Of a stretch of 64,000 bases of DNA, positions 32,101 through 35,100 are shown piece by piece. Made by a program: the position numbers and the translations under genes. Every line of letters begins with the position of its first letter. Position 1 is the first letter of the stretch. The DNA is from Octopus vulgaris (lineage: Eukaryota), in assembly GCA_951406725.2 (NCBI GenBank), contig OX597817.1, positions 186,001-250,000 of the forward strand, read 5' to 3'. A model generated the notes under the pieces. It saw only the letters and a program-made list of their open reading frames with translations. It made no database searches and was not told the DNA's origin.

Positions 32101-35100
32101 AAATGCCTGTTCCACACACCCACAAATTCCGGAGATGTCAGCCTTCTGGACATTTTCCGTTCTATAGACATGTTTTTGTAGATATGTAGCTGATTCCTTT
32201 AGCAAGTAAATCCATGTAAATCTTGTCATCTACAATCTGGATTGAAATTGGTCTGAATTGACCAATAAATTTTACTTTAGCTTCTTTTGTTAATTAAACT
32301 CTTCTGCCTTGCACCAGGCATCAACAGTTCATTTTTATGCTACAACACTCTAAATGGAAACTAAAGCTTATAACATAATTGCGTACAATTCTTGTACACT
32401 TTGTCTTTATATGGTATACAAACACCTTCTGGGGCGCTCTTTCCTCTTGCTGAAATCAACCAAGCTGAAATATATGATTGCTGCTTTCGATGGTAATTTC
32501 AAACTTTCCACAAGTAGGAATGGTTGATCTCACTTTGGGTCACTGTAGGTCTCCTGTATATGGCCATCCAGTCCATTTTCAGTATATTTTCCCCTACCAT
32601 ATTTAGTATCTGCAAACGGTTTCTTAGTAACCTCATAAGGGTTCTTAAGGATCTCTTCTCTAATTTGCTTACTCTCGTTTCTTCTGCCAATGTGTCTGAT
32701 ATTTATTTGCATAAGTTAGAAATGGAAGTTTAATATTCTTGAAGACCAAACAATCTTTCTAGGGTTTTTGGGTACAATAAAATGTAGAATGTGGTTGGTG
32801 TTTGGAAAGACATACCACCATGGAAAAGTCGGAATGTTGTAGTGAGATGTGTTCCTCAACCAATGACGGTGGGTAGTAATTCTGAATAAGAACTGACTTG
32901 GATAGTGGCCATCCATCCATCCATCCATCCAATTGATAGGAGGATGGAAATCAGATGATAAATGATGAGGACGATGTAATTTATTGTATTGTATCTTGCA
33001 GCAAATATTTATCCTGAAGAGAGTGAGACAATGGTTGTCCCAGCAGGAAACCAAAGTCTTCTTCTTGGACAAAGACAACGTTTAGTGCATGTAATGATAG
33101 ATTTACTTTCAGTGAAAAAAGTATGTTCACAGTTGGAACAAATTTCATTGTGACTCTGCGAGATTATGAGAGACATCTGCCTAAACAACAACAACAATAA
33201 CAATAACTGCCTATCCATAAACAGTAAGAATGAAAAACAAACAAAATCCTAATTCTCCTGCTTACACTTAACCCATGGCCTGCCATGAGCCCCATTTGAG
33301 AATCTAATAAAAATAGTTTCACTGCCGGTTGTTCGTTGTATTTTAAGTGAATTGCTTGCTTACATTGCATTTGCAGAGATGTGTTTAACAATATATAGTC
33401 GTTAAAATTTGTCATTATTAACTCTAATTATCATAAATCGCAACTTTTGAACTACAAAATATCGACTGTTTTGAAAAGTTCTTTCTTTTATTTTTGCATT
33501 TCCCTTCTATATCATTCATTGATATTTCATACACATTCGCATTTGATACTATAGTTTCAGAAAAACTAAAATCTTTATTATTGCAATTGAATAGAAAAGG
33601 ATAAATATGCTTTTTCTCAGAGATCCCCATTTGGGACTTATCGAAACAATTATCATAATTTCCAAAATAATTCACATATGAAGAAAATTGAAATACTATA
33701 TATGACTTTTAACTCCTGAAACACCAGGCAAAGCCAAAAAGTATGAATAAAAATTTGGAAGTTAAGGGTTAAACAGCATTATTAGTTTCGTAATCAAATG
33801 ACAGAATGAACTCTATTGTGTCTTCTAATTTGAACATTATTACCAACAGTGCTAACCTCAATGGTTATTCCATAAACTTTCCATAATATCGATATCTTTA
33901 ATAGAACTATTATACAGTTAATCTTTCAATCGTAAAGTCGGAATGTATCCTGTTTTCAGTTATTCTTTGAAGCACAATATGGCCAGGGGAAGTAAAACTT
34001 ATAGAAATGAATTGGCAACTGTTATTTAATACTCACCAATTTCCTCAGATGCAACCTCTGTTTGTACACATTTGTCCTCAGACTTTGGAGACTCTGAAAT
34101 AAATATTTCCAAGTTTTAGAATTAATAATAGAATTTCTTTATCGTTATTTTAAATAAACTCTGTCTTGTTGTGAGACATTCAATTCCTTTGAGTCCAGTA
34201 AAACCAAAAACCAGAAATCACAAATCAAAATCAAAACAAGATATAAATCAAAATGGAAATTGTAATTATGGCCGATGCCAGTGCCGCCTGACCGGCACCC
34301 GTGCCGTTGGCACGTAATAAGTACCATTCAAGCGTGGTTTGTTACCAGTTCCGCCTGACTGGTTCCCTGTGCCGATGGCACGTAAAAAGCACCATCCGAA
34401 CGTGGTCGATGCCAGCTCCCACCTCAACTGGCTCCTGTGTCGGTGGCACGTAAAAAGCACCCACCACACTCTCGGAGTGGTTGGCATTAGGAATGGCATA
34501 CATATGTGGAAACCTTGCCAGATCACATTGGAGCCTGGCGCAGCCTACTGCCTTGCCAGTGAAATCGTCCGACCCATGCTACTATAAAAACGGACGTTAA
34601 ACGATGATGATGATGATGATGATGATGATGAGTTCCGTGACCAAATGACAATATTAACTCTATTGTGTCTTCTAATTTGAACATTATTACCAACAGCATT
34701 AACCTCAATGGGTATTTTATAAACTCACAGTAAATCGATGTCTTTAATACAATTATTATACAGATAATCGTTCAATTGGAAAATAGGAATGGAAGCTGTT
34801 TTCAGTTATTCTTTCAAGCACAATATACTCCCGGGAAGTAAACCTTACAGAAATCAATTGGGAACTATTATTTTATACTCACCAATTGCCTGAGATGCAG
34901 CCCCTAATTCCTGACATGTAGCCTCTGTTTGTACACACCTGTCTTCAAACTTTGGAGCCTCTGAAATAAATATTTCCAAGTTTTACATTTAATAATAAAC
35001 TTTCTTTATCTTTATTTTTATTAAACTCTATCTTGTTATTGTGAGACATTCAATTCCTGTCGTTAATGGTCAACAGTTGACCATTATGGTTTTGGTCAAT

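What the first reader, a model, noticed from the sequence alone, without database searches (positions are those of the whole stretch)
34037..34960. Two symmetric small exons each encode a consensus LC8 (DYNLL) binding motif between RING and death domain
Seen: exon 9 encodes EDRCVQTE and exon 10 EDKCVQTE; both are phase 1-1 and multiples of 3 (78 and 57 nt), in a polar, probably disordered linker. Established: the LC8 consensus is [D/S]-K-x-[T/V/I]-Q-[T/V]-[D/E], LC8 dimerises its partners, and many RING ligases need dimerisation. Inference: exon skipping could yield isoforms with 0, 1 or 2 LC8 sites, tuning the oligomeric state of the ligase/death-domain adaptor.
Basis: partly seen in the sequence, partly recalled or inferred. 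Interest (0 to 1): 0.8.

Follow-up and report, generated by a model that had tools for sequence, protein, structure and literature searches.

The report
Death-domain exon recycled into LC8-motif cassettes
In a large octopus family of ankyrin-RING-death-domain genes, the first death-domain exon was copied repeatedly, and the copies now encode a short motif that likely binds the dimer-forming hub protein LC8, so exon number and exon skipping would set how many LC8 clamps each protein carries.

Summary
Observation confirmed: exons 9 (78 nt) and 10 (57 nt) are phase 1-1 and encode EDRCVQTE and EDKCVQTE between RING and death domain. They are not two independent motifs. Both lie in one duplicated ~430-bp block (81% identical), whose third copy is the gene's first death-domain exon.

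In fetched paralogue stretches this block gave 189 linker exons, 118 with [KR]-x-[TVIS]-Q-T, in arrays of 0-8 per gene. Across 13 diverged subtypes the LC8 anchor positions are kept above neutral expectation (34 vs 21.7, p~0.001; p 0.06 at half rate), whereas death-domain exons conserve helix-core positions. The death-domain state is ancestral (PIDD1 match).

RNA-type contigs join RING-9, 9-10, RING-10 (skipping 9) and 9-9. Annotated isoforms of O. sinensis and O. bimaculoides paralogues carry 0-2 and 2-4 motifs.

Against: young copies often lose the motif, and no zero-motif joint was seen for this gene. The LC8 complex model gave only weak support (0.58 vs control 0.37); binding is untested.

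Verdict: a folded-domain exon likely exapted into a one-motif-per-exon LC8 valency cassette; new variant of multivalent LC8 clients.

The parts
34883..34960 (-). Exon 9, 78 nt, phase 1-1; motif EDRCVQTE at 34946..34923; skippable
   Evidence: joints RING-9 and 9-10; absent from annotated model P0001
34037..34093 (-). Exon 10, 57 nt, phase 1-1; motif EDKCVQTE at 34079..34056
   Evidence: present in P0001; joints
29763..29834 (-). Exon 11, 72 nt, phase 1-1: first death-domain exon (helix 1 and start of helix 2); homologue and likely ancestral form of exons 9 and 10
34625..35058 (-). Duplicated block copy 1 (intron-exon 9-intron)
33778..34188 (-). Duplicated block copy 2 (intron-exon 10-intron), 81% to copy 1
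29550..29905 (-). Duplicated block copy 3 (intron-exon 11-intron), 65% to copies 1 and 2
36513..36655 (-). Exon 8, RING finger (PF13920); the His ligand position holds Asp (PCGD)
25896..26101 (-). Exon 12, rest of the death domain and stop codon
41912..59445 (-). Coding exons 1-7, ankyrin repeats: 59445..59368, 54600..54446, 53327..53174, 50131..49977, 49014..48978, 43962..43753, 42087..41912

Best explanation
Exons 9 and 10 are diverged duplicates of the first death-domain exon, and each now encodes one short motif that likely binds the LC8 (DYNLL) dimer, which would clamp two chains of this ankyrin-RING-death-domain protein together between the RING and the death domain. Shown by sequence: (1) the exons share intron flanks, phase and register with the death-domain exon; (2) the helix-1 residues L-L-R/K became V/T-Q-T; (3) the cassette was amplified to 0-8 exons per gene across paralogues; (4) all units are phase 1-1 and can be skipped in frame. 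Inferred: (5) an early duplicate lost its fold, gained the anchor and was then kept by selection at positions -3, 0 and +1; (6) LC8 dimers would zipper two linkers in parallel, raising the local concentration of RINGs on one side and of death domains on the other; (7) motif number, set per gene by exon gain and loss and per transcript by splicing, would tune that clamp. The most likely setting is death-domain (cell death or immune) signalling; this last step rests only on domain likeness.
For: Homology: 60-nt flanks of exon 9 are 77% and 68% identical to those of exon 11. The closest motif exon differs from a death-domain exon at 10 of 38 nt; shuffled exons differ at 24 on average, minimum 16 of 500. 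Polarity: the death domain aligns from helix 1 with PIDD1 (E 3.9e-6, with the same LL) and RIPK1; L at -1 in 14 of 14 death-exon subtypes. Switch of constraint: in 13 linker subtypes K/R at -3 in 13, Q at 0 in 12, T at +1 in 10, with -2 and +2 the most variable; pN 0.113 at anchor codons vs 0.361 elsewhere, pS 0.90; the same codons in 14 death-exon subtypes have pN 0.466. Neutral simulation on the intron tree: anchor retained 34 vs 21.7 (p~0.001), non-motif positions 52 vs 49.2 (p 0.32); with the three 48-nt subtypes added, 37 vs 26.1 (p~0.003). In the proteins with RING and DD located, 62 motifs lie in 3,256 linker residues and 0 in 12,582 ankyrin-side residues (redundant isoforms included). 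O. bimaculoides P0022 carries 4 such motifs. ITC-validated binders in PMC6607443 Table 2 include DKGVQTP (ZFPM1), QSVQTE (MAST1) and VSVQTD (SON). Splicing: joints and isoforms. The genome holds a full 89-aa LC8. Complex model: score 0.58, best of 3 controls 0.37, contacts agree at least 74%, partner pLDDT at least 49. The mark was reached by 51 of 78 solved and 2 of 108 mismatched pairs, but at 0.60 or under by only 5 of 78 solved and all 4 passing mismatches; LC8-peptide complexes are solved, so the pass may be from memory.
Against: Young copies are not protected: in the 78-nt subtype 4 nonsynonymous alleles fall in 3 anchor codons vs 13 in 20 other codons (50 copies); in the C29/C27 51-nt subtype Q became K in 13 of 41 copies. 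55 of 149 spliceable linker copies lack the motif. Only 61 of 118 motifs have the favoured D/E/P at +2; a V at +2 marks non-binders such as DAZL, and a good-looking SIQTE peptide also failed. At half the intron rate the anchor excess is p 0.06 (13 subtypes) or 0.32 (16), although non-motif sites then diverge more than expected. Subtypes were defined by hand after seeing the sequences. K/R at -3 is partly inherited (9 of 14 death-exon subtypes). The runs laid are only guessed to be RNA, are contigs, and paralogues cross-map at 92%. The RING has Asp at the His ligand, so ligase activity is uncertain.
Confidence: 0.6

Rival explanations
1. Neutral linker padding: phase-symmetric duplicates of the death-domain exon are tolerated as flexible spacers, the VQT arose once by chance and was spread by recombination among paralogues; no LC8 function is selected.
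For: Frequent motif loss in young copies; 55 of 149 spliceable copies without motif; 28 of 68 death-domain exons had no intact-donor motif exon in the stretch fetched (lower bound); three single-base changes suffice to make VQT; one origin is not rejected (p-AU 0.377).
Against: Anchor codons show many synonymous but few nonsynonymous differences across old subtypes, while neighbouring codons evolve at the neutral rate. The conserved pattern (-3, 0, +1 fixed; -2 free) is the published LC8 pattern. Motifs persist in O. bimaculoides.
Confidence: 0.2
2. The motifs bind LC8, but the role is localisation or sequestration (tethering to LC8-containing assemblies, or holding the death domains apart in an inactive state), not activation by dimerisation.
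For: Same motif evidence as the best explanation. In ASCIZ, higher LC8 occupancy lowers activity (abstract of PMC5963919). The RING's His-to-Asp change may mean there is no ligase to activate.
Against: PMC6607443 states that LC8 is generally accepted as a dimerisation hub and not a cargo adaptor. The motifs sit directly between two domains whose families commonly work by self-association (recalled).
Confidence: 0.12
3. The conserved K-x-V/T-Q-T is read by another partner (a protease, kinase or ligase), and the LC8 likeness is coincidental.
For: Many family motifs have V or L at +2, which LC8 disfavours. Q-to-K recurs in several subtypes.
Against: Exons 9 and 10 meet all published LC8 position rules; near-identical peptides bind LC8 by ITC; no alternative reader is suggested by the pattern.
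Confidence: 0.08

Closest known systems
Multivalent LC8 clients (ASCIZ/ATMIN; 53BP1, GKAP and KANK1 in the listing)
   Same: Several LC8-type motifs in a disordered stretch. In ASCIZ individually weak sites cooperate (PMC5963919 section 7), which would let weak +2 V/L copies count.
   Different: Here each motif is its own skippable exon, derived from a folded-domain exon, and the number varies from 0 to 6 intact copies among paralogues. I did not examine the exon structure of the known clients.
Mind bomb (MIB1/MIB2) E3 ligases
   Same: Ankyrin repeats followed by a PF13920 RING; sources name the family MIB2-like. The last ankyrin exon has MIB1 as its best natural match among solved structures (8v0e, E 3.7e-7).
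   Different: No N-terminal Mib/Herc2, ZZ or Mib-repeat domain in Pfam scans of 7 proteins, one RING only, and a C-terminal death domain. Likely a derived C-terminal half (inference); not a Mind bomb orthologue.
PIDD1 and RIPK1 death domains
   Same: The C-terminal 90 aa match PIDD1 (E 3.9e-6) and RIPK1 (E 0.014) from helix 1.
   Different: Different N-terminal domains; partners unknown.

Membership tests
LC8-binding motif (rules of PMC6607443) | Anchor: mid-sized hydrophobic or H-bonding residue at -1 and +1, Q at 0 | tested here: met
   V-Q-T in both exons; VQT anchors in validated binders
LC8-binding motif (rules of PMC6607443) | P/D/E at +2; no aromatic at -2; large (K/R) at -3; polar at -4; no internal proline | tested here: met
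   E, C, R or K, D in exons 9 and 10; across the family only 61 of 118 motifs meet the +2 rule
LC8-binding motif (rules of PMC6607443) | Lies in a disordered region | tested here: met
   Residues 295-320 of P0001 have pLDDT<50 and no secondary structure; low pLDDT can also reflect a gappy alignment; exon 9 was not in the model
LC8-binding motif (rules of PMC6607443) | Anchor conserved more than flanks | tested here: met
   Met across old subtypes; not met within young subtypes
LC8-binding motif (rules of PMC6607443) | Measured binding to LC8 | not testable with these tools
   Only a weak complex prediction, 0.58 vs control 0.37; LC8Pred and ELM were not available
Multivalent LC8 client (ASCIZ type) | Two or more motifs on one chain | tested here: met
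   Exon 9-10 joint in 3 of 4 runs (may come from any of 4 genes with this pair); up to 6 intact-donor motifs per paralogue
Death domain (PF00531 clan) | Helical bundle matching known death domains from helix 1 | tested here: met
   PIDD1 E 3.9e-6; helical with high pLDDT; Pfam scores below the curated cut-off
Mind bomb family | N-terminal MZM and Mib-repeat substrate domains (definition recalled) | tested here: not met
   None in Pfam scans of P0001 and 6 relatives; the coding sequence starts with ankyrin repeats
Mind bomb family | Ankyrin repeats followed by two or three RINGs (definition recalled) | tested here: not met
   Ankyrins and one RING only
Active C3HC4 RING ligase | Eight zinc ligands C3HC4 | tested here: inconclusive
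   Asp at the His position (PCGD) here and in 14 of the 98 proteins held; PF13920 still passes its cut-off; activity untested

The most novel reading that the evidence does not exclude
A protein-interaction motif was born from the first helix of a death domain by exon duplication and three base changes, and octopuses then turned it into a digital dial: dozens of paralogous ankyrin-RING-death-domain proteins, whose modules recombine freely, carry 0 to 6 or more LC8 sites by gene and by splice form, setting a graded threshold for ligase dimerisation and death-domain assembly in a diversified immune or cell-death sensor family.
Probability: 0.3. Interest if true: 0.88.

Novelty: new variant of a known kind. 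Interest (0 to 1): 0.72.

Why it matters
It gives a traceable case of a short linear motif arising from a folded domain: ancestor, intermediates, degenerate copies and intron flanks all survive in one genome, and the constraint visibly moves from helix-core positions to LC8 anchor positions. It also supplies a natural series with 0-6 motifs per chain for testing how LC8 valency controls RING and death-domain self-association. Finally, it points to a large octopus family, labelled MIB2-like in databases, for which my nine searches beyond the LC8 motif itself found no description.

Tried and rejected
Two independent motifs: rejected, they are one duplicated block. Death-domain exon derived from the linker exon: rejected, its helix 1 matches PIDD1 and RIPK1. 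Block as a free transposable element: unlikely, since copies sit in register, on one strand, upstream of death-domain exons; one pattern hit on C16 (L028) held no copy. Exons 9 and 10 copied recently from this gene's own exon 11: not supported, since their flank identity to it is near the family-wide linker-to-DD average (p-distance 0.37) and the 9+10 pair occurs in four genes. Monophyly of motif exons: neither shown nor rejected (deep forks open, p-AU 0.377). Mind bomb orthologue: rejected. The 'anchor' count line had a regex error (0 of 189) and was not used. No RNA holder is listed on record as RNA. Whole-model Foldseek returned only ankyrin proteins. Earlier findings of the scan: none. A word search in PMC12057147 for VQT, cysteine, hydrophobic and exon found nothing.

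Full report
OBSERVATION. The gene runs on the minus strand with 12 coding exons: ankyrin repeats (exons 1-7), RING (exon 8, PF13920 E 1.1e-10), two short linker exons, and a death domain split over exons 11 and 12. Exon 9 (34960..34883, 78 nt) and exon 10 (34093..34037, 57 nt) are phase 1-1 with AG/GT sites and encode EDRCVQTE and EDKCVQTE. A rule-based motif occurs twice in six frames of the window, against 0.05 in 60 shuffles. The database model of this gene, P0001 (410 aa, named MIB2-like, Octopus vulgaris, by its source), includes exon 10 but not exon 9 or exon 6. With all exons the product would be 506 aa (arithmetic).

ORIGIN. The two exons lie in one duplicated block that includes intron DNA (435-nt alignment, 81%). 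A third copy at 29550-29905 (65%) is exon 11, the first death-domain exon: 72 nt, same phase, same register. The death domain aligns from helix 1 with PIDD1 (E 3.9e-6; PIDD1 has the same LL where the linker exons have VQ) and RIPK1, so the death-domain state is ancestral. Among family copies, the closest motif exon differs from a death-domain exon at 10 of 38 bases; shuffled controls average 24, minimum 16 of 500. The codons CTT CTG AGA (L L R) and GTC CAG ACA (V Q T) differ by one nonsynonymous base each. The duplication is old, not from this gene's own exon 11: intron p-distances are 0.39 linker-linker, 0.31 DD-DD and 0.37 linker-DD. A single origin is not rejected, nor shown (p-AU 0.377; deep forks open).

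FAMILY. The second death-domain exon has 137 matches in G000, a lower bound. The exon-9 block has 347 candidates, of which the 40 scored are 95-100% identical. The acceptor pattern has 121 exact matches against 0 for the control; 100 were listed. I fetched 100 stretches, mostly around those hits, and found copies with intron flanks alone, so the motif played no part in detection: 277 hits. Of these, 16 had one flank only and 4 had bad boundaries and were dropped; the 21 set aside for lack of a canonical donor were added back. Of 189 linker copies, 118 have [KR]-x-[TVIS]-Q-T in register, and 61 also meet the -4, -2 and +2 rules. Arrays hold 0-8 linker exons and 0-6 intact-donor motifs before each of 68 death-domain exons; these are lower bounds, since the stretches were limited. 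O. bimaculoides P0022 has four motifs, but only 3 of the 7 O. bimaculoides proteins printed, from two genes, have any. In proteins with both RING and DD located, 62 motifs lie in 3,256 linker residues and none in 12,582 ankyrin-side residues; isoforms are redundant in this count. 71 of 72 profile hits carry an Octopus name; the range beyond Octopus is open.

SELECTION. I took motif positions from PMC6607443 (sections 4, 7, 8, 9 read), though I had already seen the motif in the copies, and I defined subtypes by hand, one medoid each. In 13 linker subtypes, -3 is K/R in 13, 0 is Q in 12, +1 is T in 10, and -2 and +2 vary most. pN is 0.113 at anchor codons and 0.361 at other codons, with pS 0.90 at the anchor. 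In 14 death-exon subtypes the same codons have pN 0.466, and the conserved sites are -6, -1 and +2, a helical spacing. Three 48-nt subtypes without the motif were left out of that table. Neutral simulation along the intron tree gave anchor retention 34 vs 21.7 (p~0.001) and non-motif 52 vs 49.2 (p 0.32); with all 16 subtypes, 37 vs 26.1 (p~0.003). At half rate p is 0.06 and 0.32, but non-motif sites then diverge more than the model allows. Against this, young subtypes show no protection: 4 nonsynonymous alleles in 3 anchor codons vs 13 in 20 others among 50 copies of the exon-9 type, and Q-to-K in 13 of 41 copies of a 51-nt type. 55 of 149 spliceable copies lack the motif. The picture is long-term retention of at least some motifs with fast birth and death of individual copies.

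SPLICING. Contigs of four runs (kind only guessed as RNA, likeness 92) show RING-9 in 3 of 4, 9-10 in 3, RING-10 skipping exon 9 in 3, 10-DD1 in 2, DD1-DD2 in 3, and head-to-tail 9-9 joints (2 runs exact; 2 runs with a 3-base variant) that must come from paralogue arrays. No RING-DD1 joint is among the 15 rows shown; 14 rows were hidden. Paralogues cross-map. For the RING-10 joint, eight fetched paralogues have a near-identical RING exon but no exon-10 type in the stretch fetched. Of the three other genes with an exon-10 type, one has a RING only 32% identical, one appears from its annotated products to have a different RING (P0009/P0010), and one was not resolved. So skipping of exon 9 most likely happens in this gene. 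Database isoforms of one O. sinensis paralogue carry 2, 1 or 0 motifs (5, 4 and 3 of 12), and those of an O. bimaculoides gene 4, 3 or 2; these are annotation models, not measured transcripts.

BINDING. Exons 9 and 10 meet every positional rule, and ITC-validated binders have near-identical cores (ZFPM1, MAST1, SON), but good-looking non-binders exist too. In the AlphaFold2 model of P0001 (mean pLDDT 82.3), residues 295-320, covering exon 10, are the only segment under 50. G000 encodes an 89-aa LC8. The complex of two LC8 chains with P0001 292-325 scored 0.58 against a best control of 0.37, with at least 74% contact agreement and partner pLDDT at least 49. That is weak support: the mark was reached by 51 of 78 solved and 2 of 108 mismatched pairs, but at 0.60 or under by 5 of 78 solved and all 4 passing mismatches; peptides are untested, and solved LC8-peptide complexes may drive it.

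MECHANISM. Shown: duplication, polarity, arrays, in-frame skippability, motif fit. Inferred: LC8 binding (about 0.7 for these two peptides, my estimate), parallel zippering of two linkers, and tuning of RING and death-domain self-association by motif number. That LC8 acts as a dimerisation hub is from PMC6607443; that weak sites cooperate and occupancy grades activity is from PMC5963919 (abstract and section 7). That RING and death domains often need self-association is recalled. The RING has Asp at the His ligand, so ligase activity is uncertain. Rivals: neutral padding (0.2), LC8 for localisation or inhibition (0.12), another reader (0.08).

COMPARISON AND NOVELTY. It would work like ASCIZ-type multivalent LC8 clients. 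It is not a Mind bomb member (no MZM or Mib repeats, one RING), although its ankyrin-RING part likely derives from one. Literature searches, seen as listings only: (octopus or cephalopod with death domain, ankyrin, RING, MIB2 or Mind bomb; LC8 with death domain or splicing; linear motif with exon duplication) returned nothing whose title or abstract start describes this family or a motif born from a domain exon. The library lacks most subscription papers, and no supplements were read. PMC12057147 was seen as outline, abstract and one word search.

VERDICT. New variant of a known kind; interest 0.72.

Noticed in passing
G000 paralogues; P0001, P0002, P0007, P0010; L012-L013, L061, L107: Modules look shuffled between paralogues: near-identical linker exons sit behind RING exons only ~32% alike, and the same death-domain type follows different RINGs and linkers.
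   Followed up: partly
e.g. L041 (C29:15855955), L030 (C28:10766921), L069 (C31:5681070): Linker copies whose donor GT changed to AT, CT or TT mostly keep the motif (20 of the 21 copies set aside as donor-less; one of them is a GT donor my rule missed). Annotated products P0017 and P0036 read through such a copy and stop, giving ankyrin-RING-motif proteins without a death domain.
   Followed up: partly
48-nt TPTSVKDALTTSQPV copies, e.g. L013 (C4:170559): This subtype has TCAA instead of TCAG at the acceptor, lacks the motif and is skipped in annotated proteins: likely a pseudo-exon.
   Followed up: partly
window 36513-36655 (-): RING has Asp at the His zinc ligand (PCGD), shared by a subfamily (14 of 98 proteins held).
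   Followed up: partly
P0047 (O. bimaculoides): Carries a second, still death-domain-like copy of the first death-domain exon in its linker: an apparent further duplication of the same exon.
   Followed up: no
P0003, P0004, P0047: Another subfamily fills the linker with a 7-residue PSTSQ-type tandem repeat instead of motif exons.
   Followed up: no
L029 (C27:23661225-23662221) and C29 arrays: Linker exons repeated at a 151-166 bp period with very short introns; Q-to-K and 36-nt deleted variants are common.
   Followed up: partly
G000 C1:216930652-216965052 and C1:102708591-102732824: Tandem runs of stop-bearing copies of the second death-domain exon about 2.4-7 kb apart on the first cluster.
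   Followed up: no
window 34189-34624: Insert between exons 9 and 10 with three 28-nt repeats at 68-nt spacing and a (GAT)n run; very deep contig cover suggests a high-copy repeat.
   Followed up: no
G000 C4:160214-178985 and C4:299774-309274: Paralogues lie on both sides of the window on the opposite strand; the left one has four linker exons.
   Followed up: partly
window 2-3345 (-), 60321-62617 (-), 30118-31172 (-): ORFs that look like LINE-type and other reverse-transcriptase elements and a broken mariner-like transposase in intron 10 (labels recalled, not tested).
   Followed up: no
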